DNA of 64,000 nucleotides, from the NCBI RefSeq assembly GCF_028641065.1, contig NC_073410.1:6882001-6946000 (forward strand). The letters are read 5' to 3'. The position numbers and the translations under genes are program-made. The notes beneath the pieces are model-generated. The model made no database searches and was not told the DNA's origin. It saw only the letters and a program-made list of their open reading frames with translations. Numbering within the stretch: position 1 is the first letter of the stretch; each line of letters starts with the position of its first letter. The DNA is from Leucoraja erinacea. Taxonomy: Eukaryota. This document shows, piece after piece, positions 5,915-61,269 of the stretch.

Positions 5915-6082
5915 TACAATGACTAGACCGGCAGAAAATTATTTATTTTGCTCCCCTGACAGCGTGCACAGAGAACAAGGTGGGATGACAAAGAGATTAA
6001 AATGTTAATTTGAAATTCTCCCAATCCATCCACGTCCACCGCAGCAGAATCACAGAACTGCACAGCACAAACAAGGCAATGC

Positions 6083-6172
6083 GGAAGGGTCTCGACGCGA
6101 AACGTCACCCATTCCTTCTCTCCAGAGATGCTGCCTGTCCCGCTGAGTTACTCCAGCTTTTTGTGTCTATCT
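6083..6172 (+). mobile_element. Short Penelope-derived hammerhead unit with TSD
   Basis: 90-bp unit (aagggtctcgacgcgaaacgtc...ttgtgtctatct) flanked by the direct repeat aaggcaatgc (6073-6082 / 6173-6182). Confidence 0.82.
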
Positions 6173-6366
6173 AAGGCAATGCATCTATTATGCTTGGGAA
6201 AATCCTGTGCAACTAGCCCCACTCCACAGCAGTGCTTCAGACCGCTACATCCATGTCGATCCATCAGGTACCAATCTACAGTTTAAGTTTTAGGGTTACA
6301 GCATGGAAACCTTTAGCCCTTTTAGCCCAGCTGGTCCACGCCGAACAGCGATCAACTGCCCACTAA

Positions 6367-6673
6367 CGGGCCTGTCCCACAGTACGTGGTAATTCAAGAG
6401 TTCTCCCGAGTTTCCCCTGATTCGAACTCGGAGAATTACGGTAATAGCCGTTCGTAGGTACTAAGGGCTCTCGTGGACATTTTTCACAATGCTGAAAAAA
6501 CGTCACGAGGTACCGCGTTTCCCCGAGTACCTGCCGTTAGCGTTACGAGCCGCTACGAGACGTCCATGAGCTCCGACATAGCCTCTACGTCCATTCTACG
6601 TGCTTACCATGAGTTTGATTTTTTTTAAACTCGGGAGAGCTCTTGAAATATCTCGGACAGTGGGACAGGCCCT
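6367..6673. mobile_element. PIF/Harbinger-like MITE (internal family A) inserted in a V-SINE
   Basis: TIRs cgggcctgtcccac...gtgggacaggccct, TAA on both flanks; splits a minus-strand V-SINE (about 6283-6838). Confidence 0.82.
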
Positions 6674-7994
6674 TAATTCTATCTTACACACGAGGGGCAA
6701 TCGACATAAACCAATTAACCTTCAAACCTTTGCGTCTTTGGAATGTGGGAGAAAACTGGGAGCATCCTGAGAAAATCCACTCAGTCACAGGGAGAATGTG
6801 CAAACTCCACACAGTAGAGTTGCCGCAGCACTGCACCATAAAGACAACCTTGATAGAATGGCACAATGGTAGAGTCAGAGACCGAGGTTCGATCCTGACT
6901 ACGGATGCTGTCTGTGTGGAGTTCGTACGTTCTCTCAGTGACCACGTGGGTTTTCTCCGGGATCTCTAGTTCCCTCCCACATTCCAAAGACGTGCAGGTT
7001 TTTGTAGGTTAATTGGTTTGTGTAAATCGCCCTAGTGCTTAGGATGGAATTCGTGTATAGATGATTGCTGGTTGGCCTGGACCCAGTGGCCAGGGGCTTT
7101 TCACTCTGTATTTCTAAACGAAAAAGGTGATGCAGCTGAAAGGTCTTTCACAATCCATCATCCTGGATTAAGACACCATCTGGAATTGGTGTCAATGAAA
7201 GAGGAAAGACTTGTGTTTGTGCAGTGCCTTTAATAGCAAAAACCTTTCAGCCAACTCAGCAGTTTTGGAGGGCATTGACTGTTTGACCATACAATGCATG
7301 ACACCCAATTACCACACATGAACCTCACTCAAACAGCACTTGCAATGGCAAACCTTATTATTTTGACACTGTTGATCAAAGGATAAATGTAAAGTGCTTG
7401 AACATCGAAACACCGGTCTCGGCAAAAATGATCACGGGCAGGCCAGTGTTGAACCATTAACAACTGATGTCCCTCCCCACGTAGCTAATGAATCTCATGC
7501 TGAAATTATGAGTTTTAATTAAAAATTAACGATCTCCTCCTGAGCAAATGGGATTGATATGTCAAGCCTTTGAGACCAATAAATTGGTCTCTGTTAGCGA
7601 AAGTGGCAACTATTGACTGGGAAGGGTTATTCAACCTCGAGCAGAACTCAATGCGATTTAATCAAATTCTCAGATGCATTTGATTGTAAATTGAAGCTGG
7701 CTGTTTTAAAATGCAGTGTGCTTTATTAGTAAGGTCTTGTTTATACTGTTGACGTTCTGCCTAATGAAAAACGTGAATATATAGAAAATGCTTTTCGACA
7801 TGAATGAGATGGACGTTTGTCGGCGATTTAAGGCTGTAATGGAATGCTCGCTGGCCCAAAAACTTTTTCTTTCAAGAAAAATAAGTAAAAGAAAATTCAA
7901 AGAAAAGTGGAGAATATTGTGAGTGTTCAGGAGCCATTGTGGAGAGGGAAACAGATAAAGACTTGGGATGGTGACTTGCATTGTGTATTTTAAA

Positions 7995-8560
7995 AGTGCA
8001 GATTTGCATTTATATAGCACCTTGAGAACCTCAGGACATCCCCGAACACTTCACAACCAGTTATGTATTTTTCAGGATAGACACAAAATGCTGGAGTAAC
8101 TCAGCGGGACAGGCAGCATCTCTGGAGGTTAGGAATGGGTGACGTTTCGGGTCTGAAGAAGGGTCTCGACCCGAAACGTCACCTATTCCATCTCTCCAGA
8201 GGTTCTGCCTGTCCTGCTGAGTTACTCCAGCATCTTGTATCTATCTTCGGTTTATACCGGCATCTGCAGTTCCTTCCTACACAGGTGTAATACAGGATAT
8301 ATGGCAGTCTGTTTATGCACAGCAAGCTCCCATTATTAGCAATGTTATAATCATGAGATATTACACTTCTATGCTGTAAAGGCATGAATGTTGGCAGACA
8401 TCAAAGAAAGCTCTGCTCTTGTAAGGAATGATTAATGGGACCTTCAGATCAATGATCTCAACCACAGGTTAACACTGCAGGAGTTCTTTATCGTAGATCA
8501 TCAGGGTAATTTTTGTGCTCATTCTGGCGAAGGACACAAGCCAACAATTTATTTACTCTG
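7995..8560 (-). mobile_element. Old DeuSINE/SacSINE1-like relic interrupted by a Penelope-derived hairpin unit
   Basis: L2-type tail ttgcatttatatagcacctt...ctcaggacatccc...cttcacaacc resumes after 8285 (ggcagtctgtttatgcacagcaagctccc). Similar decayed copies at about 7205-7400, 10385-10720 and 22955-23150. Confidence 0.6.
8076..8283. mobile_element. Penelope-derived inverted (tail-to-tail) unit with hammerhead motif at 8153-8180(+)
   Basis: Left arm 8076-8152 is the reverse complement of the right arm. The centre reads CTGAAGA-A-GGGT-CTCG-ACCC-GAAA-CGTC. Similar inverted units at about 19750-19955, 25450-25615, 31838-32045, 56567-56760 and 59354-59705. Confidence 0.82.
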
Positions 8561-11500: not shown

Positions 11501-11648
11501 CAATAGCTCTATTATTCACTCCTTGTTTTCCATTCCTGTTGGATGCATTTGCAAATTCCTTTCACCACCAATGGAGGTCCTTGCTCATCTCTTTTCACCA
11601 ATGGATAGCAAAATGGCATTAAAACAAAAGCAATACCAACTCTCTTAC

Positions 11649-11727
11649 CCGAAACGATGGTGTAACCAATTCCCCGAGGCCGTCCGCGGTCTTGATCCAG
11701 CGCCGTAATAACTCGCACGGTCTTACC
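11649..11727 (-). CDS. CDH23: Cadherin-23 coding exon (equivalent to human c.754-832; EC3)
   Basis: Inside ORF 11512..11748(-). Acceptor ...gttttccag|GGT, donor TCG G|gtaaga; 79 nt. GKTVRVITALDQDRGRPRGIGYTIVS-G matches human GTTVRIITAIDQDKGRPRGIGYTIVSG. I did not find the next exon in 1-11648 or the previous exon in 60237-64000. Confidence 0.96.
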
Positions 11728-14931: not shown

Positions 14932-15349
14932 AGTGATCATTTTCTTATGACCATGGAGACCATTCGGTCCATCAATTCCATGCTGTCCTTGATTTATTTC
15001 ATAAGTACCCCAGTGTAGCATAAAGGGATCACAATAGGTGCTACAGAAATGCAGGACTTTCCGGGGTACTGGGAACGGGTTTGCTATCTGCGTTACTGCA
15101 TTGCCGCTTGTCTGCATTACCTCAACTTCCCGTGAATGGGAAACGAGAGCTCTCCCACAATTTCACACCAGAGTTTTAATGGAAGCTCCGTCGAGTTGGC
15201 AGAGTCAGGGAACAACAGGCTTCCACTGTGAAGTACAGGGCAGTCTAACCCAGGCACCAAACCTCAGGGAAAATGCCCGGAGCTGTCAAGGCAAGCTTCT
15301 CCTCCAACCTCATCTACTGCATCCGTTGTTCAGGATGTGGACTCTTATA

Positions 15350-15443
15350 TCTGAAGAAGGGTTTCGGCCCGAAAAGTTGCCTATTTCCTTCGCTCCATAG
15401 ATGCTGCTGCACCCGCTGAGTTTCTCCAGCATTTTTGTGTACC
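15350..15443 (+). mobile_element. 94-bp Penelope-derived hammerhead unit with 14-bp TSD
   Basis: Starts tCTGAAGAagggtttcggcccGAAA; flanked by tgtggactcttata at 15336-15349 and 15444-15457. Confidence 0.88.
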
Positions 15444-15841
15444 TGTGGACTCTTATACATTGGGCGAGACCAAACGTAGACTGTGCGATTGTTGCGCTCA
15501 ACACCTTCGCTCAGTCCGCCTGAACCTACCTGATCTCCTGGTTACTGAACACTTTAATTCTCCTTCCCATTCCCACACTGACCTTTCTGTCCTAGGTCTC
15601 CTCCATTGTCAGAGTGAGGCTAAACGCAAATTGGAGGAACAGCATCTCATATTTCGCTTGGGCAGCTTACAGCCCAGTGGTATTAACATTGATTTCTCTA
15701 ACTTCCCTCTCTCTCCATCCCTCCCCCAGCCAAGATGCACCAGCTTCTCGCTTTCACCCAACAGCTAACAATGGCCAGTTTCCTTCATCATCGTTACTTT
15801 TTTGCACATCTTTCATTCATTGTTCTTTATCTCTCTATATC

Positions 15842-16262: not shown

Positions 16263-17419
16263 AACCAAGGTATAAACCTGACTATCATCGTCTATATCTC
16301 TCGTTTCCCTTATCCTGAACTAGTCCGAAGAAGGGCCTCGACCCATTCCTTCTCTCCAGAGATGCTGCCTGTCCGACTGAATTACTCCAGCTTTTTGTGT
16401 CCTTCCGTTGAAATGCAATAGCTGTCGGGGGGGTAGTGCTGGTTAAAATCCACTCTGCTGCTCTGTGTACTGGAATTCCATGCGCTACCAACAGAACTGA
16501 CCCTGGTAATCAACATTCATTTAAGTGTTCCACCACACTGCGCATAAAGTGCCCAAACCAATTTAGACCCGACCACCAGAAGCGTTCGTTATTTTTATGG
16601 TGTCACGGATTAATTTCTCCCCTCATCCTGACTTTTAACAGAAAGAAAGGGCGAAATATTGCGTAAATGTCGTCCGTTCATGCGGAAAATGCTGAACAAA
16701 ACAATCAGTTTAATTGTCGAACCAAAAGATGACGGGACCTGTACAGACAGCAAATTGTTCTGAAATGACGGGGGTCGCGACACTTCTTCCACTGGCCTCC
16801 TGGTATCGTTCTGCTTTGAAAGGCAGTGAAGTGTTTTTGCTTTCAAATTATGATTTAACAATTCAAAACAAGACGCAAGTACTTGGGGCAGATGAAGTCC
16901 GAGTGGGGCTTAAAATAAAAATATGTTGGTGTTTCTGGGAAAGATCTTCTTCACTCCGACAAAGTTATTTGATTTACACAGTGAACATTTAAGATTCCCG
17001 TCTCTCAAGTCCCATCACATCAGCTGGAATAACTCAGCGGGACAGGCAGCATCTCTGGAGACCCTTCTTCAGACTCTGTGTGTGAGATCGAGCTTCCTAG
17101 TCAGCTGGTTTTTGGTTCAGTTTGAAGAAGGGTCTCGACCCGAAACGTCACCCATTCCTTCTCTCCAGCGAAGCTGCCTGTCCCACACAGTGGCACAGCG
17201 GGAGAGCTACTGCCTTACACCACCAGAGACCCGGGTTCGATCCTGACTCCGGGTGCTGTTTGTACGGAATTTGTACGTTTTCCCCGTGACCTGCGTGGGT
17301 TTTTTCTCCGAGATCTTCGGTTTCCTCCCACACTCCAAAGACGTACAGATTGGTAGGATAACTGGCTGGGTATGAATGTAAAATTGTCCCTAGTGTGTGT
17401 GGTGGTGGTGATAATGTGC

Positions 17420-23347: not shown

Positions 23348-23634
23348 CACCCCAGCGGTATGAACATTGAATTCTCCAGTTTCAGGTAATCCTTGCTTTC
23401 AAGCTTGGGTAGTTTACACCCCAGCGGTACGAACATTGGATTTCTCCCTCCTTCCCCTCCCCTTCCCAGCTCTCCAACAGCCTTCTGTCTCCGCCTCTTC
23501 CTTTCTTCTTTCCGCCCTCCACCCCGCACCCCCCACGTCAGTCTGAAGAAGGGTCTCGACCCGAAACGTCACCTATTCCTTCGCTCCATAGATGCTGCCT
23601 CACCCGCTGAGTTTCTCCAGCATTTTTGTCTACC
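23348..23634 (+). mobile_element. Penelope-like 3' fragment (duplicated GIY-YIG end plus hammerhead at 23543-23570)
   Basis: caccccagcggtatgaacattga (HPSGMNIE) occurs twice, followed by a pyrimidine-rich UTR and CTGAAGAAGGGTCTCGACCCGAAACGTC. Confidence 0.8.
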
Positions 23635-23740
23635 ATATAATTTACCTTAATCATTTCTAACTCTGAGCAGTTAATAACATTAGTAATGCATCCACGGGAA
23701 GGCTCATGGATTGAGTCAGTCGGATTCTTACAGCATGGAA

Positions 23741-23834
23741 GGTAGACACAAAATGCTGGAGGAACTCAGCGGGACGGGCAGCATCTCTGGAGAGAAGGGA
23801 TGGGTGATGTTTCGGGTCCAGACCCTTCTTCAGA
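23741..23834 (-). mobile_element. 94-bp Penelope-derived hammerhead unit with 14-bp TSD, inserted in a CR1 tail
   Basis: Flanked by cttacagcatggaa (23727-23740 / 23835-23848); the minus strand begins TCTGAAGAAGGG. Confidence 0.88.
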
Positions 23835-25359: not shown

Positions 25360-25892
25360 ATGGCCATTTGAAATCTCAACCTCTTGCTAAACTCGCCCAC
25401 CAGTTTTTTGAGATTCATACACATTTACCACAATCCCTTTATCCTCATTGTGTAGGAAGGAACTGCAGATGCTGGTTTAAACTGAAGACAGACACAAAAT
25501 GCTGCAGTAATTCAGCGGGACAGGCAGCATCCCTGAAGAGAAGGGATGAGTGACGTAACGGGTTGAGACCCTTCTTCAGACGTCAGTATGAGGGTCTCGA
25601 CCTGAAACGTTACCCTTTATACACATTTGCAGTCTCCTTCCATTTAGATAATAACCTGCCCTTTGACTATGTTCCTACAATCTCCCACATTAATTTCAAT
25701 TTGCTAGATTTTCAGCCACCAACTCAACCTGTCCCAATGCATAGTCACAATATCTTCAACATAACTTTCCTTCCTTCCCCACTTTTCTTCGCGACATTTT
25801 GAAAATCCTCGTCCACCATACATTTAGGAAGCTGTTGCTGCAATGCTTATATCTTATTGCAGAGAGATATAAAACAAAACACTGCTACTCAC

Positions 25893-31546: not shown

Positions 31547-31838
31547 AGGGGCCACAGTTTAAGAATACGGAGTAAGCCATTTAGAACGGAGACGAGGAAA
31601 CACTTTTTCTCACAGAGAGTGGTGAGTCTGTGGAATTCTCTGCCTCAGAAGGCGGTGGAGGAAGGTTCTCTGGATGCTTTCAAGGGCTAGATAGGGCTCT
31701 TAAAAATAGCAGAGTCAGGGGATATGGGGAGAAGGCAGGAACGGGGTACTGATTGGGGATGATCAGCCTTGATCACATTGAATGGCGGTGCTGGTTCGAA
31801 GGGCCAAATGGCCTACTCCTGCACCTATTGTCTATTGA
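31547..31838 (+). mobile_element. CR1 3' fragment (second subfamily, ctattgt tail)
   Basis: GHSLRIR..FRTETRKHFFSQRVVSLWNSLPQK coding remnant plus 3' UTR; related copy at 59748-59985(-). Confidence 0.85.
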
Positions 31839-43530: not shown

Positions 43531-43539
43531 GCAGCAGCA

Positions 43540-43578: not shown

Positions 43579-43579
<1 letters not shown>

Positions 43580-45694: not shown

Positions 45695-47394
45695 TACGTG
45701 TAAAACCTCTTCTTCAGATCCCCTCGAAACCTTGACCCATTTTCTTACACCCATGCCACTGAGCTTGAGATGTATCTCTCTGTTGGGAAGAAACAACTAT
45801 CTCTCCATCTCCCCCTACCCCCCTCAGCCTCCACTCGTCCAAAGAAACCAGGATCAGTCTATCTTGTCTCACCTTATAACTGAGCTACTCCAGCCCAGGC
45901 AACATTATTTTAAGCTTCGTCCACTAAACCTTGCAGTCTTTGAATCATTTTATTTTCTCACCTGCCCTCCAAATCGTTGTCAGGTCGGAAATTAGCCCTG
46001 TTATATTTTTTAGTCGGCATTTAGGTTGTAGCAATGGTTCATTACTGTAGGGATCCACCTTTAATGCTTCAGCTCGCGATTCATAGAGGGAGACCATCTT
46101 TCTCACAGCTTATTACGCTTTCAAAATCTCACAAAACTCACTGGCAAAAGCTACAGCATTCAGGTAATCAGTTTAATCCATCACAATTTCAAACCCGCAC
46201 TGGTTTGAAAACAAAAAAACACAAATGAATTTTTATTTCACCAAAGGAAAATGCTTTTTGAAATGTGTCCTCTGGGTCAGCTTAAAATATATTTGAAAAG
46301 AGGCAAACATCTGGAAGCAACAAAATATTGCCACCTACGGATTAGGTATTACTCATTGGGAAATTGTTAACATGTTAACATCGAGACATGCACTTCATTT
46401 TAAGCAATAGAATGTGTTAAATGCAAATCAAATGATGAACAATCAGGGTGAAATAACCCAGCAAAGTGCTGGAATAACTCAGTGGGTCAGGCGGCGTCTG
46501 TGGAGGGAATGGGTTGACAGTATTTTCGGATCGGGACAGTGCTCTGATAAACAATATGGGGGGTGTTTTCTCATGTGTTCTGTGTAGGTGGCCGGTGCAG
46601 ACAAATTTAGTGTTTCCCCCATCATGGAAATAAGCCTTTCTGCTCACGCGATCCATCCAGTAACTATTTACCCCAAATTCTCTTTTTTCCCCAACGCATT
46701 CCAAGGGGAACCACAAATGGGATACTTTGTGTTAAAATGGAATACTATGTAACCTTGTCAGCGCCCTTTATCTAGTGACTCTTTGCATACCTTGAGTTTG
46801 CAATGCAAAGAATCTTCACCACGACTTGCCGCATATGACAAAAAAGTATCTTTCATTCATTCACTCACTCAGCTCCCCCCAGATGCTTCCACTCATCTGC
46901 ACACTTGGGGCAATCTATTATGGCCAACTAACCGACCAACTCTGAAGCCTTTGGGACGTGGGAGGAGACGGCAGCAGTCGGAGGAAACTCACTGAACGTG
47001 GTTGCAGAGAGAACATGCAAACTCCGCAAAAGACAGCAGCCAAGATCAGGACTGAACCGAGGTAACAGCAGCAGTGAGGCATGACTGTGCTGCCATCTGT
47101 ATGCAATCATGTCTGCCGCTGTTAAGCAAAGCTCCGTAGAAGATTTATTAGAGACAACAAAATGCTGATGCCCATTCACCAAACAAAGAAAACAAACTGT
47201 TTAAGAAGGAACTGCAGATGCTGGAAAATCGAAGGTACACAAAAAAGCTGGAGAAACTCAGCGGGTGCAACAGCATCTATGGAGCGAAGGAAAAAGGCAA
47301 CGTTTCGGGCCAAAACCCTTCTTCAGACAACAAAGAGGTGGAGTAACGCAGCGGGTCAGGCAGTGCCTCTGTAAAACATGGATAGGTGACGCTT

Positions 47395-48098
47395 CATAGA
47401 AACATAGAAAATAGGTGCAGGAGTTGGCCATTCAGCCCTTTGAGCCAGCACTGCCATTCAATATGATCATGGCTGATCATCTAAAATCAGTACCCTGTTC
47501 CTGCTTTTTCCCATATCCCTTGATTCTTTTAACACTAAGAGCTAAATCTCTCTTGAAAACATCCAGTGAATTGGCCTCCACTGCCTTCTGTGGCAGAGAA
47601 TTCCACAGATTCACAACTCTCTGGGTGAAGAAGTTTTCCTCACCTCAGTCCTAAATGGCCTACCCCTTATTCTTAAACTGCGACCCCTTGTTTTGGACTC
47701 CCCCAACATCGGGAACATTTTCCTGCATCTAGCCTGTCCAATCATTTTATGTTTCTGTAAGATCCCCCTCATATCCTTCCAAATTCCAGTGAATACAAGC
47801 CCAGTCCACCCATTCTTTCATATGTCAGTCCCGTCATCCCAGGAATTAACCTGGTGAATTTACGTTGCACTCCCTCAATGGCAATAATGTCCTTCCACAA
47901 ATTAGGTGACCAAAATTGCATACAGTACTGCAGGTACACAAAATTTCTGGAGAAACTCAGCGGGTGCAGCAGCATCTATGGAGCGAAGGAAATAGGTGAC
48001 ATTTCGGGCCGAAACCCTTCTTCAGACTGATGACTGCAGGTGCAGTTTCACCAGGGTCCCGTACAACTGCAGTAGGACTACCTTGCTCCTAAACTCCA
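47395..48098 (-). mobile_element. CR1 3' fragment interrupted by a hammerhead unit (47936-48032, TSD actgcaggt)
   Basis: YCMQFWSP...IEGVQRKFTRLIPGM remnant; direct repeat actgcaggt at 47927-47935 / 48033-48041. Confidence 0.86.
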
Positions 48099-50185
48099 AA
48101 GTTTTCCTTTAACCTGCCAGATGCTCCTAATACTGATTAGCTCGAAGGGCCGAATGGCCTCTACTCCTGCACCTATTTTCTATGTTTCTATCTGGAGATG
48201 TCATAAAAGGCTTCCAGACCAAATATGTAGCTCATTTTAAATAACCCTGATTTTGAGGAGAATTTCTGTAGCCAGAACTCGAGGGCCTGAGCTATGGGGA
48301 GATGTTGGTCCAACTCAGATTTTATTCCTTGGACCATGGGAGAATGAGGGGTGATCTTATAGAGGTGTATACAATCATGAGGGGAAATAGATAGGGTGGA
48401 TGCACAGAGTCTTTTACACAGGGTGGGGGAATCAAGAACCAGAGGTCATAAGCTTTAAGGTAAGATTTTATAGAGAACCTGGCGGGGGGGAACTTTTTCA
48501 CTTCGAGGGTGGTGGGCATATGGAACAAGCTGCCAGAGGAGGTAATTGAGGCAGGTACCATACAGCATTTAAAAGACACTTGGATAGATACCTGGGTAAG
48601 AAAGGTTCAGACAGATATGGGCAAAAATCAGGCCAAGGAGACTGGCTAAGATGGTGCATCATGGTTGGAATGGGTGAGTTTGGTCATATGGCCAGTTTCT
48701 CTGCTGTGTGATTCTATGACATGTTTTGCCCTCAATCCAAGATGCCCATCCAATATGGGGAGCCCACCTTGCCCAAATAATTGCCACGGCTTAAAGTTTG
48801 TCTAAAATTGAACGAGACCCTCACAAATGGCATTTGCGGCAAAGCATAAACTACGCCTGGCTGAAATGCGTCTCCTTTATTAAGTGTCAGCATCACTGCA
48901 TGTAAACAGCTCAATGACCCGACAACGGCAGCAGCTAATGTAAAATTTGATGCAAAAATAAGGAGGCGGTGAGGGTAAATTAAATGCTCCGACATGATTT
49001 AATCTTGCTTCAGTAAATGAGGAATTCCAATTAAGTATTTCACCTAGTAATTGTTTCCATAGTTGTGCTGTAACTGCTAAATTGAAAGGTTTTAATTTAT
49101 AGCTTAATTTCCCACTTGGCCTCTCATGGGCCCTAAACAGAGACCAGAGCAGCTACAACTTGCTGTTGAGTTTGCTCTACGGCAACAGAAAATCTCAGGA
49201 TACAACACCTACGATCGCCATTCAAGATTCAAGAGAGTTTATTGTCAAGTGTCCCAGATAGGACAGTGAAATTCTTGCTTTGCTTCAGCACAACAGAATA
49301 TAGTAGGCATAAATAAACACAAAACAAATCAGTGTGACCACATACCATTGAATACACACACAAATAAGCAGATAAAGTGCAAAAGGTTCTACCTCCGAAC
49401 GATATTAACTTGACTCCCGAAAAGACAAAATTGAGAGAATGGAAAACAAATTCTTGACTCTTGATCCAATTTTATTTTTCCCACATTCCCATTATCATAT
49501 CTGGGATTTTACCACTTCCTCCGTACTAGGAACAATTTATAACAGTCAATTTACCCCCCCCCCCCCCCCCCATTTGTGTGATGGTGGAGGAAACTGGGCC
49601 CTCGCAGGGTTAATGCATGTGGTCACAAGTATCAAAAATAAATTGCAAAGCTTCAAGAAGACGGCAAGGCTTAGGGATAGGTAGAATGTGTAAAATGTTT
49701 AAAGTCCTCTTCATGTGCTATAACAATTCTGTGCTTTAAAGGGGGTTGGAACTGAGCATGTGCACCTGGCACTTACTGCAGTCTACTGTAGTCAGGTTCT
49801 CTTCTCTGTTGACAAAGGACAAATAGCAATCGTAAAAGTGTAAAATAAGGTCGAAAGCGTAACAGGACATTGGTAATGGGGTGGAATAGGGCTGTGTTTA
49901 CTCTGCTGGGTCTTTCAGAGATGCACGATGTATATTTGTTGGAAGACCATTTGGAAGAAGGAAAAGTTATAAAGTGCCTTCTTCAATAAACAAATAACAA
50001 AGGAAAATTCTGTATAAAAGAAGCAGATGAATCTTTGTTCGTTGAGTTACATGTAATCACTGTATTTGGCGCTCTTAAATAAAGCCTTGATCGTCTTACC
50101 CGATCTTTGTGTTGTGTTTTAAAGTTTTGTTTAACACAGGGAAAACATGTAGAGATCTCAAAAGCGTGGATAATGAATTCAGTAG

Positions 50186-50904
50186 AGTCAAGTCAAGTCA
50201 AGTCAAGTTTATTTGTCACATACACATACGAGATGTGCAGTGAAATGAAAGTGGCAATGCTCGCGGACTTTTGTGCAAAAGACAAACAACAAAACAACCA
50301 AACAAATTATAAACACAATCATAACACACATATTCTTTTACATAATAAATAATAGAAGGAAAAAACGTTCTGTAGAGTTATTCCCTGGTGGGAAAGGCGT
50401 TTACAGTCCGAATTGCCTCTGGGAAGAAACTCCTTCTCAACCTCTCCGTTCTCACCGCATGGCAACGGAGGCGTTTGCCTGACCGTAGCGGCTGGAACAG
50501 TCCGTTGCAGGGGTGGAAGAGGTCTCTCATGATTTTATTTGCTCTGGAGTTGCACCTCCTGTTGTATAGTTCCTGCAGGGGGGTGAGTGAAGTTCCCATA
50601 GTGCGTTCGGCCGAATGGCACTACTCTCTGCAGAGCCTTCTTGTCCTTGGCAGAGCAATTCCCAAACCAGATGGTAATGTTCCCGGACAAGATGCTTTCC
50701 ACCACCGCTGCGTAGAAGCACTGGAGGATCCTCGGAGACACTCTGAATTTCCTCAATTGCCTGAGGTAAAGGCGCTGCCTTGCCTTACTCACCAGTGCTG
50801 AGGCGTGTGATGACCATGTCATATCCTCAGAGATGTGGACTCCCAGATATTTAAAACAGTTCATCCTATCCACAGGATCCCCATTTATACTCAATGGAGT
50901 GTGC
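50186..50904 (-). mobile_element. Rex1/Babar LINE 3' fragment (CTTGA-tail family)
   Basis: ORF 50535..50906(-) [15 protein letters not shown]...; (cttga)n tail; near-identical to the 3' part of 53642-54930. Confidence 0.92.
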
Positions 50905-51425
50905 AAAGCCAGGGACTTGAGACAGAATACTTGGTATTAAGGAGAAAAAAGAGGCTGAGAAGCTGAATTCTTGAGCAAAACAGCAAGCAGTTCATAAGTT
51001 ATAGAAGCAGAACTAGGCCATTCAGCCCATCATGTCCACTGCCATTCCTTCTCAACCCCATTCTCCTGCCTTCTACCCATTAACCCCCCAACACCCGACT
51101 GGTCTCGAACCTAAACATCGCCCATCCATTCCCTTCCCCAGATGCTGTCTGACCCACTAAGTTCCTCAAGCACTTTGTGTTTTACTCTGGTATTAATAGA
51201 AACACTTCAGGGAACCAGGAAATCTTGGAGATGCCAAATGGTAAGAACGACACAGCCAATGCCAATAGCTTATTGCAGTTCCTTGCCTCGACCTCATCTC
51301 CCACCACTTAGGCAACTAGATAAAAACATCTCAAAACAGAAGTGACTTGCTGCAAAATTGGCCAATGCACCCCGAAGTGAGATATTAACAACAAGGCCCT
51401 TCGTTTAAAACCTTGTGTGAACAAA

Positions 51426-51651
51426 TGCCCCTGTCCCACATAGGAAACCTGAACGGAAACCTCTGGAGACTTTGCGCCCCACACAAGGTTTCCGTGCAGT
51501 TCCTGGAGGTTGCAGGTGGTTGCCGGATGTTGCAGGTAGTGGAAGCAGGTAGGGAGACTGACAAAAACCTCCGGGAACCTCACGGAAACCTTTGGTGGGG
51601 CGCAAAGTCTCCAGAGGTTTCCATGCAGGTTTCCTAAGTGGGACAGGGGCA
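51426..51651. mobile_element. Harbinger-like MITE (family F, long palindromic arms)
   Basis: TGCCCCTGTCCCAC...GTGGGACAGGGGCA with about 65-bp inverted arms (ggaaacctctggagactttgcgcccc). Confidence 0.82.
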
Positions 51652-53321
51652 TAATGAAGCACAAAACGGCGGGACCCTCTAGTGGGGAAAATCACTGGCC
51701 TGAAACAACCCCTTGGTGAATGCTCATGTTAATTCACTCACCATGGAGCTGAAGGAAAACCATTAAACATGTTTCTGTAGTCAAGTTATTAAAATACAGA
51801 CAAGTAAAATTAGTTGTTCCAGATTCATATTTGCTCAGCATGTGTGAATTTAATTAAAACACTTCTACAGTATGCAATCTGTGATGCATGTTAATAAATC
51901 AGCATCATCAGCAATCTGAACCTCACCTCCTTTTACCACAAAAACAATGTTTCTGTTCCATCAAATGAATAGCTTCACGCAGACGAAACGTGTGAAACCG
52001 TGCGAAATATTTATTACCTGAATTATTGTGTCATTCCTAACCTCTCAACCAACTTTGGCCGTCTTCTGTGGAGGAAGGAACTGCAGATGCTGGTTTAAAC
52101 CCAAAGACAAGACACAAAATGCTGGAGTAACTCAGCGGGACAGGCAGCATCTCTGGAGAGAAGGAATGGGTGACAGAGCTATGATGGTACAAAACTGACC
52201 CACAAACTGATGCCTGTCTCAGGGGGCTGGTAGATTACCCCAGCCGGGAGCCGTTGCCTTAGATGAACAAAAAAGTGATTCTGGATGATCAGCCATGATC
52301 ATATTGAATTGAATTGAATTGAATATTATTTTTGTCATTCAGACCTTTCGGTCTGAGCGAAATTTTGTTGCCTTGCAGTCGTACATATAATAAAAATGAT
52401 AAAAACACACAATAAACACAAATTTAACATCCATACAGTGAGTTCACCAGGCACCTCCTCACTGTGACGGAAGGCAAAAGTCTTAAAGTCTTATATTAAA
52501 TTGAATGGCAGTGCTGGCTCGAAGGGCCGAATGGCCAACTCCTGGACCTATTTTGTATGTTTCCACATCTCAAATGTTTCATTGTTGGGTTTGAGTTAAA
52601 TCACAATAAGAGCCCGCACTGTGACACTGTGACTCCTGTGCAATCTGTATCTTTTCCGTGCCTCCTGCAACGCTGTGTAATGTGAAACAACATTATGGAC
52701 AGCTATGGCTGGTCCCAAGTGTATCATCTGAAATAATGGACCTTCCCCAGCTTGCTTCACCGAGCAAACATTAGCTGAGCCAACAGATAAACACAGAGGC
52801 AGGAAGTGGAACATCTGAATTATTCAGCCTCACAGGAGCTAATCTGCCAGAGTACAATCTAAGTCAACACATTGCTCCTGATTCGCGATAAAAATCTTTC
52901 AAACCAATGGTAGCAAATGTACTTCAGTTGGAAGCATTCTTGCACCTTTCACATTGAAGCCTTCCTCCAACATGAAGCATTTAACCTCAGCTAACACATC
53001 CAAGCAGAGGGCATGTTGGTGCAGATGCAGAGAGGGTGTAGAACTGAACTCCAAGAGGCCAAGGGAAAAGCAATTTCCACGGTTCAAGCCTTGATGAATT
53101 TATCACAGCTACTGTGGTGGCACGGTGGCACAGCGGTAGAGTTACTGCCTTCCAGCACCAGAGACCTGGGTTCTATCCTGACTATGGGTGTTGGCTGTTT
53201 GGAGTTTGTACGTTCTCCCCATGACCTTCATGGTTTTTCTCTGGGATCTCTGTTTTCCTCCCACACTCCAAAGGCGTACAGTTTTGTGGATCAATTGACT
53301 TGGTAAAATTGTAAATAGTCT

Positions 53322-53334
53322 TGTGTGCGTGTGC

Positions 53335-53393
<59 letters not shown>

Positions 53394-53520
53394 TGTGTGT
53401 GTGTGTGCTTAGGTATGTGGGAGTCCATATGTGTATCTGTCACTGGGTGTGTGTGGGTCAGTGGGTGTATGGGTGTGCGTGTGTGTGAGTGTGTGTGAGT
53501 GTGTGTGTGTGTGTGTGTTA
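53322..53520. repeat. (GT)n-rich microsatellite expanded within a V-SINE
   Basis: Pure GT run of about 50 bp plus degenerate GT extensions. Confidence 0.93.
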
Positions 53521-53641
53521 GTGTAATGGGCCTGTCCCACTTAGGCGATGTTTTAGGCAACTACAGGCGACTGCCTCAAAATTCTCAACATGTTGAAACA
53601 TTTTAGGTGACAGTGGTGACAATTATTGCTGTCGTGGGTTG

Positions 53642-54930
53642 ACATCTGCGCCTTCCTCCCTCGGAACATGGACCCGTTGCAGTTTGCATACTGTCCGAAC
53701 AGATCCACGGACGATGCGGTCTCCCAGGTCTTGCACACCGCTCTCTCCCATCTGGACAGCCAGAAGGGGGACTACGTGAGGATGCTGTTCATAGACTACA
53801 GTTCAGCCTTCAACACGATAGTCCCCACCAGACTGCCCTGGGAAGCTACTGGAATTGGGGCTCAACACCTCCCTGTGTGCCTGGGTCCTGGACTTTCTCA
53901 CCGCCAGGCCCCAGGTGGTCAAGATGGGAGGGAATACATCAAAGTCCCTCACCCTGAGCACAGGATCGCCCCAGGGTTGCGTCCTCAGCCCCCTATTGTA
54001 CTCCCTGTACACACATGACTGTGTGGCTAGGTTCAGCTCCAACTCAATAATTAAGTTTGCTGATGACACTGTGGTGGTGGGCCTGATCTCAGACAATGAT
54101 GAGAAGGCCTACTGGGAGGAGGTGGCTGATCTAGCACTCTGGTGCCAGGATAACAGCCTCCTCTTGAACATCAAAAAAACGAAGGAGCTGATCATGGACT
54201 TTAGGAGGGCACATCATCCGAGGACGTACACTCCATTGAGTATAAATGGGGATCCTGTGGATAGGGTGAACTGTTTTAAATATCTGGGAGTCCACATCTC
54301 TGAGGATATGACATGGTCATCACACGCCTCAGCACTGGTGAGTAAGGCAAGGCAGCGCCTTTACCACCTCAGGCAATTGAGGAAATTCAGAGTGTCTCCG
54401 AGGATCCTCCAGTGCTTCTACGCAGCGGCGGTGGAAAGCATCTTGTCCGGGAACATTACCATCTGGTTCGGGAATTGCTCTGCCAAGGACAAGAAGGCTC
54501 TGCAGAGAGTAGTGCGTTCGGCCGAACGCACTATGGGAACTTCACTCACCCCCCTGCAGGAACTATACAACAGGAGGTGCAACTCCAGAGCAAACAAAAT
54601 CATGAGAGACCTCTTCCACCCCTGCAACGGACTGTTCCAGCCGCTACGGTCAGGCAAACGCCTCCGTTGCCATGCAGTGAGAACGGAGAGGTTGAGAAGG
54701 AGTTTCTTCCCAGAGGCAATTCGGACTGTAAACGCCTTTCTCACCAGGGACTAACTCTACAGAACGTTTTTCCTTCTATTATTTATTATGTAAAAGAATA
54801 TGTGTGTTATGATTGTGTTTATAATTTGTTTGGTTGTTTTGTTGTTCCGCGAGCATTGCCACTTTCATTTCACTGCACATCTCGTATGTGTATGTGACAA
54901 ATAAACTTGACTTGACTTGACTTGACTTGA
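53642..54930 (+). mobile_element. 5'-truncated Rex1/Babar LINE with most of the reverse transcriptase (one frameshift near 53835)
   Basis: ORFs 53626..54018 and 53855..54754: DPLQFAY..NRSTDDA...[15 protein letters not shown]; [17 protein letters not shown]; KFADD; FKYLG; (cttga)n tail. Follows a truncated Harbinger-like MITE starting at 53526. Confidence 0.95.
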
Positions 54931-55284
54931 CATAGGTGGCGTGGATTGTGTGGGCTGAAGGGCCTGTTTTCATGCTGTATCTCTAAACTAAACTGAACTA
55001 AGCATTGAAAATGCATTTGGATTCTGTACAATAAGCACTCTGCTTTCCAATGGTCTCACTTCAACCTGTGTGTACTTATCAGCCATTCCTGTTTTCAAAA
55101 TGATGGTGATATTTCAGTTAGTCACAAAATAATTTGGGCTAGGTGAGAATATTAAAGGTTCTCAGTGGGAAGGGCAATAGCAGGGAATCAGGTTTTTTTA
55201 TTGACTGACGACCGGCCAGTTACAAATACAGGAAATAGAAGTGACGCAAAAAGCTGGAGTAACTCAGCGGGACAGGCAGCATCT

Positions 55285-55320
55285 CTGGGCGGAAATCCTG
55301 GGGGGGGAACGGGGGGGATC

Positions 55321-55386
<66 letters not shown>

Positions 55387-55931
55387 AATCCAAATATCAA
55401 AATAACCTAAAGATTTGAATAAAAAGTGTGTGGAGCTCTTTGCCAATATAAGCTGTGCTTGACGATGTTTTCCTATAGACTTCATAAATAAAACAGTAAG
55501 ATTGCATGGTCCAAGCTTTCAAGTAAGTTGCAATATTTAAACGTAAGCTGCTTTGAGATATGGGGGACAATCTCCCTCCCCCCCATGTTTTATCAGACGT
55601 TTTCTAAGGGGTGAATCGGCCCATTCGTGGGGCCTTTCAGCCCCCGTCGTGGCTTAAAATCAAACTGCTGCGTCGAGGCGATCAAGACTCCTGATGTTGA
55701 AGCCCCCGCCGGCTGATGAAAGACCCCGTGAACGGGCCGATTCAAGCCCCACGATTCGGGGGCGGACGAAGCTGCTGTTGCTGGAGTGTTGAGTCAGTCA
55801 CCAACCAGGTCAGCTCCCGTTGTTACCGTCCACAGGGCCCACGGCCGAAACCTCACGTGTGTGCGCATACGCGCGCGCGGTCGACAGGAAATTGTGTCCC
55901 CCCCCATGTTTTGATAGCGATTTCCGTGCCT
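55285..55931. mobile_element. Probable non-autonomous DNA element (hAT-like?) inserted in a Penelope 3' unit; contains a G63 run
   Basis: Imperfect IR ggcggaaatc ... gatttccgtgcc; repeated ccccccatgtttt motif; the host unit is broken at gcagcatctctg and resumes at ggtgacgttttgggtcgag. No clean 8-bp TSD seen. Confidence 0.5.
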
Positions 55932-55939
55932 CAAAGGGA

Positions 55940-56090
55940 TCGGTGACGTTTTGGGTCGAGACCCTTCTTCAGACTGGTTCAGGACGAGGGAAACGAGAGA
56001 TATGGATGATGATGTAGAGAGATAGAGTACAATGAATAAAGGATAGGCAAAATAAGTAACGATGATGAAGGAAACGAGCCATTGTTAGCC
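55940..56090 (-). mobile_element. Penelope 3' UTR plus hammerhead-like repeat (reverse copy of the 15760-16345 UTR)
   Basis: Reverse complement matches gctaacaatggc..tttccttcatcatcgttact...atctctcgtttccct...agtctgaagaagggtctcgaccc without the CR1 interruption. Confidence 0.82.
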
Positions 56091-57758
56091 CAGGAATTGG
56101 AAATCTTTCGTCAGAAATCTGGATCACCAGCATGGGCGGCATGTTTGTGTAAATTATTTATGGTCTGGGAATGGTTTTATAGCTTAATTTATGGAATACA
56201 AATCACAATGCTTATTCATGAATAAAGTATGAAAACAGGTTACCAATTGCACAAAACTTTCTTTGTGAAGCCGTAATGATTCTTTCGTCATCTTAAAGGA
56301 TGGCTGAGTGTCGGCGTGGCTGAAACTGACACCAGGAGCTGAACGTGACAAACCTCATTAAATTTGCATGTATTCATTTTATGCGTATCACTGTTCTCTG
56401 CCGGGGTATTTGATTCCTTGTAATAGAGTTTTATGACTCTCCAATTTGCAGAATGTCTGTCAACCAGCGCTCATTGTTGCACATTAGTTAAGGGCTGAAA
56501 GATGTTTTTAAACTGACCTTCAGCTCCCATTTGCTGAGATAAACTTGCAGCGTCACTCCTCATGTTGGACACAAAAAGCTGGAGTAACTCAGCGGGACGG
56601 GCAGCATCTCTGGAGAGAAGTCGTGTGTGAGAGGAGGTGACGTGTCGGGTCGGGACTCTTCTTCAGACTTCTTCTGAAGAAGAAGAAGAAGAAGGAGGGT
56701 CTCGACCCAAAACATCACCCATTCCTTCTCTCTAGAGATGCTGCCTGTCCCGCTGAGATAAGGGCCCGTCCTACGACCTTTCACGACCTTTTTAACTCGT
56801 GGACATTTTTCATCATGTTGAAAAAACGCCCCGATCTACTTGATGCCACGAGTACCTACGACTAGCATCACGACCTACCTATGACCTCCTACGACCTCGT
56901 GACGACCATGCTGCGAGCATGAGTCAAGGGGAAACTTGGCAGAGGATGTAGGTGGGACAGGCCCTTTAGTCCAGCTTTTTGTGCCTATCTTCGCTTTAAA
57001 CCAGCGTGTTACAACTTTTGCCTTTTAACTGTTAGTAGAGACAGTGTTCTTTTGCAATTTGTAATCCTAATGGCATTTTACAAATATTAATTGCATTCAT
57101 ATCTAATCTCATCAATACAATCTTGCTGAAAATTTGTACCTTCTGAACATTGTCTCGGCAATTGATTTTGGACCACTTTAAGTGACTTTGGATCACTTGC
57201 CACTTTAAGCTGAACAGCTAATAATACATGGTCAATAATTGCGTTTGAAAATGCAAAGACAATATTTCTCTTCTTGGCATCAACAAATGCACAACAATTC
57301 TGAACATTTATTTTAGAACTTGCTTCCTGATAAAGGTGTTTGATTTTCATCCAGTATTAAAGGATACCATACAGAGCAGAACGTTGGCATGGTCTGAAGA
57401 AGGTTCTCAACCTGAAACGCCACCTATTCCTTTTCTCCAGAGATGCTCTCTTGCCCGCTAAGTTACTCCAGCTTTTTAGGTCTATCCAAGGTGCTTTAAT
57501 TGTTGGTTCTACTTTGTTCAGCATCACCAAATGGCAAGAGTATTAAATACACATCAGATTTATAATCCAAACTCTATATTTGCAACTTTAGCTGAAAATA
57601 TACACCTTGTTACAAATTTGAGTACGCATTATCCGAATGTTGAATTTGAATTTATACAGCACCTATAACACTGCAAAATGTCCCATTGGGTTTTACAGGG
57701 CCTTTGCCAACTAAGATCTAACATTGAACCAGGTTGGAGATGCTAGGATAGATGGAAA

Positions 57759-58098
57759 GGGCATCACAGTGGCGTAGCGGTACAGATACTGCTTCACAGC
57801 GCCAGAGACCCGGGTTTGACCCTGACTATACGTGCTGTCTGTACGAAGTTTGTACGTTCTCTCCGTGACCTGCGTGGGTTTTCTCCGGGATCTTCGGTTT
57901 CCTCCCACAATCCAAAGACGAACAGGTTTGTAGGTTACTTGGCTTGGTATAAATGTAAATTCTCCCTAGTGTGTGTAGGAGAGCGTCAGTGTGTGGGTAT
58001 CGCTGGTCGGTGAATACTCGACGGGCCGAAGGGCCTGTTTCCACGCAGCATCTCTAAACAAAACTTAAAAAAAACTAAACAAAACTAAAAAGAACTAA
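57759..58098 (+). mobile_element. V-SINE (HE1-like)
   Basis: tRNA head, V-domain, A-rich (ctaaa) tail. Confidence 0.87.
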
Positions 58099-60143
58099 AG
58101 TTTGGCAAAACAGAACAGTCTTAAAGAGAAACTTTGAGGCGAGGCAAGTAGAGTGGTAATGACAGTTTAGCAGTAAACCCAGGGGCTTTGGATTATAGGA
58201 ACAGCTCTAACCAGGAACACATAATATCAACCAGAATTGGAGCAGCGCAGAGGTGACAAGTCAGGTGCTTAGGAAGACAGAGAGGGGCCAAGTCATAAAG
58301 TGACACACACACAATGGTTTTCAAATACACAGTTATAAAATAAACGATCCTATATCTGTTCTCTATAGAAACACATCTGCTCTCAGGACCCTGGGGAAAT
58401 GTTGGCATTCGCCATGTTGTGCTGTGAATTTCTAAAAGGCACGAAACAAAAATATTCCAGGAACAACCATCACACTTTCCAGGTGCCCCTGAATAGTAGG
58501 TCATAGATTCATTGTCTCATAGACTCATAGACCCATAGAGTCATAAGCGTGGAAATAGGCCCTTCTGCCCAAATAGGCCCTTCTGCCCAACCCTCTCAAC
58601 CTATCCTATTCATGTCCCTGTCTTCTTAAATGTTGTGATAGTACCTACCTCAACTACCTCCTCCAGCAGCGCGTTCTATATGTTGCCCCTCAGATTCATC
58701 TTAAATCTTTCCTCCCCCCCCCGCCTCACCTTAAACCCATTAACAATGACAAAGATGGGATTAGTATAGAATTCATTTGTAGCATAAACATGGCAGCCAT
58801 TTCTCACTTAGTAAACGCCGGTATTGAGTAGAACAACAATCTCACCCAAAATACTCAGTAGGTCAGGCAACATTTTGTAAAGGGAGAAAAACATTGCAAT
58901 TAAAATGAAACCCTCGTCAGAAGTCGCACACCAAGGAATTGAGTGAATTGGAGATTGAGGAGGAGTGGAGAGAACCGAGTGAGTATCCGTGAGAAGATGA
59001 AATGAAAGGTTGTCCAAGGAACACATGCTTTTCAAGTCCAGTTAATACTTGAATGAGGAAAATTAGTGAAAGAATAACTCCAATCATTTCACTTAATTTT
59101 GTTGGTGCAAACAGTGACTCGGAATCATTTCACTTGGTTTTCCTCAGTGAACGATGGATGAAGTATACGAAAAACATTCTGCAAATAACACCATGGTGTC
59201 TTCAATTAATTCTGAAACATTAGTTCATCTCAGCTATAAAAAACAGCGACCTCATTATTGTTGTACAATCTCAACATCGCATTTGGAATGTCAACCTAAG
59301 TTAGTCAGTGGTGCATGAATCCGGAGTGTTTGGACTTGGAGCCAAGATGCTCTAGACACAAAAAGCTGGAGTAACTCAGCGGGACAGCCACCATCACTGG
59401 AGAGAAGGGAATGTGTCTGAAGAAGGGTTTCGGCCCGAAACGTTGCCTATTTCCTTCGCTCCATAGATGCTGCTGCACCCGCTGAGTTTCTCCAGCATTT
59501 TTGTCTACCTACACTGGACGGAAGGAATGGGTGATGTCTCGGGTCGAGACCCTTCTTCAGGCTCAAAGTTCTTCAGACTACTTCAGTCTCGACGTAAAAA
59601 GTCACCCATTCCTTCTCTCCAGAGATGCAGCCTGTCCCGCTGAGTTACTCCAGCACTTTGTGGCTATCTTCAATTTAAATCAGCATCTGTAGTTCCTTCC
59701 TGCACAAGTTCCACCATTCTGTTGCACTGGCCTCATAAAATGAAGAAAGACAATAGACAATAGACAATGGGTGCAGGAGTAGGCCATTCTGCCCTTCGAG
59801 CCAGCACCGCCATTCAACGTGATCATGGCCGATCATCCCCAATCAGTAGCCCGTTCCTGCCTTCTCCCCATATCCCCTGACTCCGCTATTTTTAAGAGCC
59901 CTATCTAGCTCTCTCTTGAAAGCTACCAGAGAACCTGCCTCCACCGCCCTCTGAGGCAGAGAATTCCACAGACTCACCACTCTCTGCCTAAACCTAAAAT
60001 AAACACAATTGTCGAGGTAGCGCAATCCACAAGTGGTTGTCATGGAGAGAAATTCGATGACCTTGCAGAGAGCAGGTAAATTAACATTAACTGGGCAATA
60101 ATTGGGTTTAATACAAGGCTCCCCATCCGGGATTGTCACTGAC

Positions 60144-60236
60144 CTCAGGGATTCTCACGCTGTAGGGCTGGTTGTGGAACACGGGTGGATTGTCGTTCAC
60201 GTCGCCCACTTGAATATTGACAATGCCTTTAATCAC
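60144..60236 (-). CDS. CDH23: Cadherin-23 coding exon (equivalent to human c.337-429; end of EC1 / EC1-EC2 linker)
   Basis: Minus strand reads ...tttgcag|GTG ATT AAA...ATC CCT GAG|gtcagt; 93 nt, phase 0/0. Translation VIKGIVNIQVGDVNDNPPVFHNQPYSVRIPE matches CDH23 (human VITRKVNIQVGDVNDNAPTFHNQPYSVRIPE) and contains the DxNDN calcium motif. Too short for the ORF track. Confidence 0.96.
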
Positions 60237-60279
60237 CTGCAAATTAAAAGTCAAGAAGGGTTTCAGAAGTTGTACTGCA

Positions 60280-60749
60280 CTTTAGTTTAATTTAACTTAG
60301 AGATGCAGCGCGGAAACAGGCCCTTCGGCCCACCGGGTCCGTGCCGACCAGCGATCCCCGCACATTAACACCATCCTACACCCACTAGGGACAATTTTTA
60401 CATTTACCAATCCAATTAACCTACAAACCCATACGTCATTGGATTGTGGGAGGGGGGTGGAAGATTGCAACCTTCACGTGGTCCGCCCTGTTTCGACTAA
60501 TGCAATCAACTCGACGTGCACAAACAGAAGATCAAATAGAACAAGTTGTCCAATAACGTTAGGCTGTGCACGCCACACGAAAGAAGAAGAAGTGGAGGAA
60601 ACCGGAGATCTCGGAGAAAACCCACGGAGGTCACGGGGAGAACGTATAAACTCCGTACAGACAAGCGCCCGTAGTTGGGATCGAACCGGGTCTCCGGCGC
60701 TGCATTCGGTGTAAGGCAGCAACTCTACCGCTGCACCACCGTGCCGCCC
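60280..60749 (-). mobile_element. V-SINE about 45 bp upstream of a CDH23 acceptor, interrupted by a ~140-bp (AAG)n-tailed retroposon (about 60453-60592, +)
   Basis: SINE broken at gtgggagg; the insert ends aagaagaagaag followed by gtggagg (imperfect TSD). Second copy of the insert at about 63414-64000. Confidence 0.82.
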
Positions 60750-60798
60750 TTGGTTGTAAATTAATCAAATTCTCAACAGAATGGATCCCTCCACCTGA

Positions 60799-60889
60799 CT
60801 GAAGAAGGGTCTCGACCCGAAATGTCGCCTATTTCTTTCGCTGCATAGATGCTGCCTCACCCACTGAGTTTCTCCAGCACTTTTGTCTA
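60799..60889 (+). mobile_element. ~90-bp hammerhead unit with 15-bp flanking direct repeat
   Basis: ccctccacctgactg at 60787-60801 and 60890-60904 (the left copy overlaps the CTG of the core). Confidence 0.85.
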
Positions 60890-61269
60890 CCCTCCACCTG
60901 ACTGCTAGTTTGGCGTTCATTAGGCTTCTCTACCCCAATGCAGGAGAGGACAGAGCTCCCAACTAATCATTATGCATTATGCTAAATGTGAAATAGCTTG
61001 ATTAATTCATGCAGATCACTGACTGTGCTACCAGTTATGGGCTTGTATAGTTAATCAGTACAACTAACCAAAATCAAAATTGTATTTTTAGAACTGAAGC
61101 AATGCATGTACACTGCAGTGTTTAAATATGCATCCAACAGAACCTTAGCAAAGTCAACTTTTAGTTCCTTTTTATTCATAACTTTAGAGTAAAAGGATCT
61201 GGGAACAGCTGCAGTGGAGAGGAGATAGTTCCCCGCCTCTTCTCCGAATCTGGATTTGTAAAGAGGGTC

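What the first reader, a model, noticed from the sequence alone, without database searches (positions are those of the whole stretch)
6073..60904. ~90-97 bp hammerhead units that insert on their own with 9-15 bp target-site duplications
Seen: five clean cases. 15350-15443 (94 bp, TSD tgtggactcttata), 23741-23834 (94 bp, cttacagcatggaa), 60799-60889 (ccctccacctgactg), 6083-6172 (aaggcaatgc) and 47936-48032 (actgcaggt). Their 5' ends fall within a few bases of the CUGAAGA core and their 3' ends at ...ttttgtgtMYacc/tatct; they come from more than one subfamily. One copy sits inside a Penelope GIY-YIG gene. Inference: this may be a non-autonomous, ribozyme-bounded mini-retroposon mobilised in trans by Penelope RT/EN, or a strong reverse-transcription stop at the ribozyme fold. 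The 5' end lies upstream of the predicted cleavage site, so simple cleavage does not explain it.
Basis: partly seen in the sequence, partly recalled or inferred. Interest (0 to 1): 0.72.

Follow-up and report, generated by a model that had tools for sequence, protein, structure and literature searches.

The report
Fixed-start stubs of a Penelope retrotransposon
These ~95-base inserts are short copies of the end piece of an active Penelope-type jumping gene, not a family of their own, and they start at one sharp point just before a hammerhead ribozyme motif, which likely marks where the template RNA begins and so offers a testable clue to how these poorly understood elements copy themselves.

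Summary
All five inserts and their 9-15 bp duplications are real; two have empty-site paralogues. The unit is not a separate mini-retroposon. It is both the 3' end and the 5' leader of a young, autonomous RT + GIY-YIG Penelope-like element. Short and long copies share subfamilies, 3' ends and duplication lengths.

The 5' boundary is real and sharp. In 94 young copies, 34 of the 75 that reach the core stop within 8 nt of it: 0.071 stops per nt against about 0.002 upstream. The mode is 2-3 nt before CUGA, about 30 nt upstream of the predicted cut site. These junctions carry extra bases more often than random truncations do (13 of 19 vs 4 of 16, p=0.018).

Best reading: run-off cDNA. RT primes internally in the 5' copy of the repeat on an uncleaved RNA that starts there. 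An RT stop at the fold is unlikely. RNA data did not show the start.

The class is known, and this scan noted the same pattern before in this and other genomes. I found no paper describing the fixed start.

The parts
15350..15443 (+). solo unit, -1 to +93, inserted in the coding sequence of a 5'-truncated Penelope GIY-YIG fragment; 14-bp TSD 15336-15349/15444-15457
   Evidence: 29 empty-site paralogues
15300..15711 (+). host: broken, 5'-truncated Penelope-like GIY-YIG coding fragment (start approximate); its own UTR follows and its unit lies at about 16322-16405 behind another inserted repeat
23741..23834 (-). solo unit, -1 (2-nt microhomology to -3) to about +93; 14-bp TSD 23727-23740/23835-23848
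60799..60889 (+). solo unit starting at +1; 15-bp TSD 60787-60801/60890-60904 overlaps the first three core bases
6083..6172 (+). solo unit starting at +6 after one extra G; lacks the CUGA core; 10-bp TSD 6073-6082/6173-6182
47936..48032 (-). solo unit, -7 to about +90; 9-bp TSD 47927-47935/48033-48041, inside another dispersed repeat
   Evidence: 58 empty-site paralogue matches
15351..15380 (+). minimal type I hammerhead motif as it lies in one copy: CUGAAGA, bulged A, 4-5 bp helix II, GAAA, 4-nt helix III palindrome (mutated here), predicted cut after +28, 2-bp helix I (-2/-1 with +29/+30)
   Evidence: sequence against the description in PMC4209133; no Rfam hit
23481..23637 (+). read-through copy: pyrimidine-rich 3' UTR followed by the unit (others with core C at 16325, 18743, 34503 and 36718 on the minus strand)
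8076..8300 (.). head-to-head pair: inverted shorter arm joined to a unit starting at -2 with the long (+133) tail; similar pairs at 31834-32048, 59353-59510, 25449-25614, 19750-19932, 56562-56760
47181..47395 (-). head-to-tail: older unit followed directly by a younger unit starting at -2

Best explanation
The units are short insertions of the terminal repeat (pLTR end) of an autonomous Penelope-like retrotransposon, likely made when its own RT primes at the internal start site in the 5' copy of that repeat and runs off the 5' end of an uncleaved RNA that likely begins 2-3 nt before CUGA. Shown: the unit stands at both ends of the 4-kb element; short and long copies share subfamilies, two 3' ends (+92-97 and +128-135) and 9-17 bp duplications; 5' ends pile up at -2/-3. 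Inferred from the anole element (PMC11167929): endonuclease nicking, internal priming at two sites that bound the tail, and use of uncleaved RNA. Inferred here: the boundary is an RNA 5' end, most simply a transcription start at the initiator-like TCAGTC (consensus recalled), otherwise an end trimmed back to helix I. Priming at the 3' copy would give the ordinary randomly truncated copies.
For: Unit follows GIY-YIG plus UTR in most of 29 other loci. It also precedes an ATG at +165 that opens the long ORF (RVT_1 and GIY-YIG matches below Pfam cut-offs). Young family: 5,819 exact copies of a 64-mer lying downstream of the cut site. In 94 of the first 100 listed, stop rate per nt was 0.0082 (+28..+3), 0.071 (+2..-6; 34 of 75) and 0.0017-0.0021 (-7..-400) (p=4e-21 against the inside rate). 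All subfamilies, 1.064 Mb sample: 218 of 285 copies that reach the core region (profile start at +8 or earlier) stop there, and 67 read through. Upstream base composition decays to background by -6. Extra non-target bases at 13 of 19 boundary junctions vs 4 of 16 upstream truncations, p=0.018, the run-off pattern recalled from full-length LINE insertions. 3 of 13 near-full-length copies that reach the core also start at -8, -2 or +3. 31 of 34 young copies starting at -6..+1 span the cut site with an intact core.
Against: No RNA evidence of a start at this point: raw reads showed no pile of starts (coverage is dominated by copies embedded in host transcripts). 10 of 13 near-full-length copies read through the 5' copy into upstream UTR, which a single fixed start cannot give without longer transcripts or a strand transfer. 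The mode in the young family is -2 (12) rather than the initiator A at -3 (9). A cap-derived G is not clear: 5 G, 3 C, 2 T before G-2. In D. virilis the start lies 46 nt upstream of an intron that ends at the hammerhead (PMC2377424, PMC4209133), not at the hammerhead. The junction test has small numbers.
Confidence: 0.62

Rival explanations
1. A sequence- or protein-dependent RT stop at -2/-3 on a longer tandem or circular template, met with similar probability at each passage.
For: Stop share does not differ significantly between first passage (34 of 75) and second passage in near-full-length copies (3 of 13), Fisher p=0.22. Read-through copies are common. The mode coincides with the first base of helix I.
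Against: The unit is not unusually stable (z 0.0 to -0.5) and the upstream 101 nt are nearly unstructured. RT has already unwound the fold when it reaches -2. Junctions carry extra bases rather than the microhomology seen at ordinary truncations.
Confidence: 0.2
2. A non-autonomous mini-retroposon (retrozyme- or SINE-like): short copies are themselves transcribed as a discrete 95-135 nt RNA and copied in trans.
For: Very many solo copies with their own duplications (about 170,000 extrapolated); fixed ends; animal retrozymes derive from pLTRs (bioRxiv 10.64898/2026.07.22.740005).
Against: No short-only subfamily or diagnostic base. 3' ends split alike in short (39 and 13 of 53) and long (29 and 11 of 41) copies. 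Ends are not at the cut site. Head-to-tail units are rare (11 of 285). Near-full-length elements start at the same point.
Confidence: 0.08
3. The boundary is a 3' splice site (pyrimidine tract, CAG, then TCTGA), and the units come from spliced or splice-processed RNA.
For: The UTR is pyrimidine-rich, variable in length and ends in CAG. In D. virilis the intron ends at helix I (PMC4209133).
Against: No copy has an upstream exon joined at that point. Of 144 boundary copies, 3 had element sequence just upstream, one being the window copy inserted into a GIY-YIG gene. Duplications abut the unit or lie a few bases off. No GT..AG joint among the 15 listed of 65 RNA joints.
Confidence: 0.06
4. Mapping artefact: alignments stop at CUGA because upstream UTRs differ between subfamilies.
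For: UTRs do differ (78 library copies); 9 read-through copies were found only by comparing sample copies with each other.
Against: The peak holds within one young family with one known UTR, and 28 of 34 boundary copies there are framed by duplications of 8 bp or more.
Confidence: 0.02

Closest known systems
EN+ Penelope-like elements with pLTR, optional 30-40 bp tail and inverted 5' copy (PMC8557442 Fig. 2 legend; Adineta Pen2a, PMC3846280; passages read)
   Same: RT then GIY-YIG ORF, partial tandems, tail, inverted 5' arm, 8-10 bp duplications there; solo pLTRs mentioned.
   Different: In the passages read, solo pLTRs without duplications are put down to recombination or deletion. Here they are primary insertions with their own duplications and a fixed 5' start.
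Anole Poseidon PAc (PMC11167929; parts 1-2 of 4 read)
   Same: Two internal RT start sites bounding the tail; hammerhead cleavage not needed; uncleaved RNA is the substrate; both strands nicked and extended.
   Different: PAc's ORF starts inside the hammerhead; here the ATG is at +165. The parts read do not report a fixed 5' end of insertions.
Minimal hammerheads of metazoan PLEs (PMC4209133; parts 1-2 of 4 read)
   Same: Core boxes, extra base before helix II, palindromic helix III, 2-bp helix I as in D. virilis; mostly single dispersed motifs, some opposite-strand pairs.
   Different: That paper ascribes single motifs to truncated PLEs without mapping ends. Position 10.1/11.1 here is G-C after the bulged A; activity untested.
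Animal non-LTR retrozymes (PMC7229834, passages; bioRxiv 10.64898/2026.07.22.740005, parts 1-3 of 5)
   Same: Non-coding, type I hammerhead, pLTR-related, dispersed monomers exist.
   Different: Retrozymes are tandem 170-400 nt units cut at the ribozyme into linear and circular RNA. These units are solo or head-to-head, about 95-135 nt, start about 30 nt before the cut site and have no lineage of their own.

Membership tests
EN+ Penelope-like element (parent) | single ORF with RT followed by C-terminal GIY-YIG endonuclease | tested here: met
   852-aa frame in L187: RVT_1 E=9e-6 and GIY-YIG E=0.007, both under Pfam cut-offs; GIY-YIG above cut-off in L033; 906-aa frame in L186
EN+ Penelope-like element (parent) | pLTR from partial tandem; optional 30-40 bp tail; inverted 5' copy | tested here: met
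   10 of 30 loci hold UTR-unit-leader tandems; 3' ends at +92-97 and +128-135; 35 of 94 young copies have an inverted arm
Neptune/Nematis type | CX2-5CxxC linker between RT and EN (PMC8557442) | tested here: met
   CxxxxCxxC motif before GIY-YIG in the L186 translation
Neptune/Nematis type | placement in an RT phylogeny | not tested
   no reference sequences fetched, no tree built
minimal type I hammerhead | core boxes, helix II, palindromic helix III, helix I | tested here: met
   core and helix pairs kept in 5 of 6 cluster majorities, with one-sided changes only (A17G, C13U, A29G); the sixth cluster has a deletion. No Rfam match.
minimal type I hammerhead | self-cleavage (as dimer or protein-assisted) | not testable with these tools
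   no assay; no pile of genomic starts at +29
non-LTR retrozyme | head-to-tail tandem repeats with a hammerhead in each unit | tested here: not met
   11 of 285 copies have a unit directly upstream
non-LTR retrozyme | monomer bounded by the ribozyme cut site | tested here: not met
   starts at -2/-3, about 30 nt before the cut; 10 of 384 at +27..+31
non-LTR retrozyme | abundant linear and circular RNA monomers | tested here: inconclusive
   poly(A) and single-cell reads cannot show such RNA
non-autonomous SINE-like family | own lineage with diagnostic bases absent from the autonomous partner | tested here: not met
   read-through share alike in 6 clusters, p=0.80; best column p=0.07 of 52

The most novel reading that the evidence does not exclude
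The unit is an R-region-like segment: RT first makes a 95-135 nt strong-stop cDNA on the 5' copy of the repeat, then transfers to the 3' copy to continue, rebuilding the pseudo-LTR. The solo units are failed transfers, so the genome holds hundreds of thousands of trapped first intermediates of Penelope retrotransposition.
Probability: 0.22. Interest if true: 0.72.

Novelty: new variant of a known kind. Interest (0 to 1): 0.4.

Why it matters
How Penelope-like elements copy themselves, what their hammerhead does and how pseudo-LTRs arise are open questions (PMC11167929, PMC8557442). A base-resolved 5' boundary read from thousands of young insertions says the template is uncleaved and has, or behaves as if it has, a defined end just before the ribozyme. 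That can be tested with 5'-end RNA sequencing and with the existing in vitro assay. It also warns annotators not to file these stubs as a SINE or retrozyme family. The element class and motif are known, so the gain is mechanistic, not a new system.

Tried and rejected
Rfam scan of the window: no hammerhead match at E<=1, three unrelated miRNA-precursor hits below their gathering scores. Two DNA searches of the genome with short unit queries returned nothing because very common words are skipped. A second young subfamily (29 loci) was noisy: the query included two flank bases and 8 copies failed to align past an indel. It gave 13 boundary, 5 read-through and 11 inside or unresolved and is not used as support. 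Run search: no RNA holder listed. RNA lay (three raw-read runs, one contig run): no pile of starts at the boundary, no GT..AG joint among 15 listed of 65; uninformative because embedded copies dominate. Lay of four contig runs of other organisms on 47500-61200: swamped by repeats, 15 of 12,338 joints shown, no orthologous empty site seen. Search for distant duplications that would frame captured exon sequence: no convincing case among the 6 boundary copies without an adjacent duplication. Folding gave no unusual stability. Look-up of earlier notes by sequence returned nothing. The literature search returned no paper.

Full report
Numbering: +1 is the C of CTGAAGA; the predicted hammerhead cut lies after +28.

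Observation. The five inserts are at the stated places and their duplications are exact: 14, 14, 15, 10 and 9 bp. Swapped flanks give 8 bp or more in 1.4% of about 2000 pairs. The 15350 insert interrupts the CGLLYIG coding stretch of a GIY-YIG fragment, and 29 paralogue matches among fetched loci carry the site once; the 47936 site is empty in 58 paralogue matches; the other three had none. The 5' ends are -1, -1, +1, +6 and -7, so one copy lacks the core. None of the five keeps the helix III palindrome.

What the unit is. A GIY-YIG query gave 97,858 first-look candidates in the 2.19-Gb genome. In most of 29 other loci the gene is followed by a UTR and then the unit. An RT query led to a young family with frames of up to 906 aa. 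In loci holding its 5' end, the same unit and tail run on into a short leader and an ATG at +165. So the unit is both the start and the end of the element. From 337 hits in 80 ten-kb loci taken at round coordinates, I extrapolate about 0.9 million copies (bootstrap 0.78-1.08 million), of which about 0.36 million start at the boundary and about 0.17 million are solo.

Is the 5' boundary real? A 64-mer lying downstream of the cut site has 5,819 exact copies. I took 94 of the first 100 listed, at 87 loci, all on one contig and chosen without regard to upstream sequence. Nineteen stop in +28..+3, 34 in +2..-6 (12 at -2, 9 at -3) and 41 spread over about 1.2 kb. Stop rates per nt are 0.0082, 0.071 and 0.0017-0.0021. 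The upstream rate is if anything too high, because several alignments broke early in low-complexity sequence. In the 1.064-Mb sample of all subfamilies, 536 hits had enough flank and 384 had an intact 3' end and score of 40 or more. Of these, 99 start inside, 218 at the boundary and 67 read through; unrecognised old UTRs may inflate the 218. There is no pile at the cut site.

Is it a family of its own? No sign of it. Among 249 aligned units in six clusters, the read-through share is 18-33% (p=0.80), and no column tracks short status. Short and long young copies share the two 3' ends and the duplication lengths: 8 bp or more in 17 of 19, 28 of 34 and 30 of 41. Three of 13 near-full-length copies that reach the core also begin at -8, -2 or +3.

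Mechanism. In the anole element, RT starts internally at two sites that bound the tail, extends both nicked strands and uses uncleaved RNA (PMC11167929). The two 3' ends and the inverted arms here fit that. Because the priming region is present in the 5' copy too, priming there gives a cDNA that runs to the RNA's 5' end. Boundary junctions carry extra bases in 13 of 19 non-inverted copies with a duplication, against 4 of 16 upstream truncations (p=0.018); that run-off ends look like this is recalled from LINE work. The boundary sits on TCAGTC, an initiator-like motif (consensus recalled), and also on the first base of the 2-bp helix I. Against: RNA reads showed no start; 10 of 13 long copies read through the 5' copy; a cap-derived G is unclear; D. 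virilis Penelope starts further upstream (PMC2377424). A per-passage RT stop is not excluded (p=0.22) but has no structural support. Splicing at the CAG left no trace.

Comparison. The parent meets the tested features of an EN+ Penelope-like element with a Neptune/Nematis-type linker; no tree was built. The motif matches the minimal hammerheads of PMC4209133. The units fail two defining features of non-LTR retrozymes: tandem organisation and ends at the cut site.

Novelty. Eight literature searches and the texts read gave no description of a fixed 5' start of such stubs. The library lacks most subscription papers. I opened no supplements, and the closed tables of the 2026 preprint may list this repeat. 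Seen: PMC11167929 parts 1-2 of 4; PMC4209133 parts 1-2 of 4; the preprint parts 1-3 of 5; passages of PMC2377424, PMC8557442, PMC3846280 and PMC7229834. This scan has noted the same pattern before, in this genome and in others; those notes are not independent support. My run-off reading predates them; the strong-stop and strand-transfer extension follows note e1-9854223.

Verdict. Real, and more than random truncation, but a by-product of a known element class rather than a new mobile family. Interest 0.4; new variant of a known kind.

Noticed in passing
window 8076-8300, 31834-32048, 59353-59510; L278, L287, L352: Head-to-head pairs framed by one duplication are very common: 100 of 218 boundary copies and 67 of 99 copies that start inside the unit have an inverted arm. 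This fits priming on both nicked strands; earlier notes cover it.
   Followed up: partly
L322, L310, L289: Young copies in which a piece of the leader or ORF start sits directly upstream of a truncated 3' end in the same orientation, like a template jump within a long RNA.
   Followed up: no
L027-L055, 3' UTRs: At least five unrelated pyrimidine-rich UTR types of about 70-290 nt lie between a conserved ORF end and a conserved unit, bounded by donor-like and CAG motifs; intron-like, but no splicing seen.
   Followed up: partly
L187 4030-4130; L186, L189, L196: The N-terminal part of the ORF holds a proline-rich tandem repeat of about 24-30 nt whose copy number varies between elements.
   Followed up: no
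window 51430-51647: Long imperfect inverted repeat (MITE-like); its Rfam miRNA hit is far below the gathering score.
   Followed up: no
window 53620-54754 and 50535-50936: Fragments of another retrotransposon RT ORF (310-aa frame); a contig of another organism covers 53755-54823 with 28 differences, which hints at recent activity or transfer.
   Followed up: no
young family Y, position +28: The youngest family has GUU at the predicted cut site with a G-U pair in helix I, where older ones have GUC.
   Followed up: no
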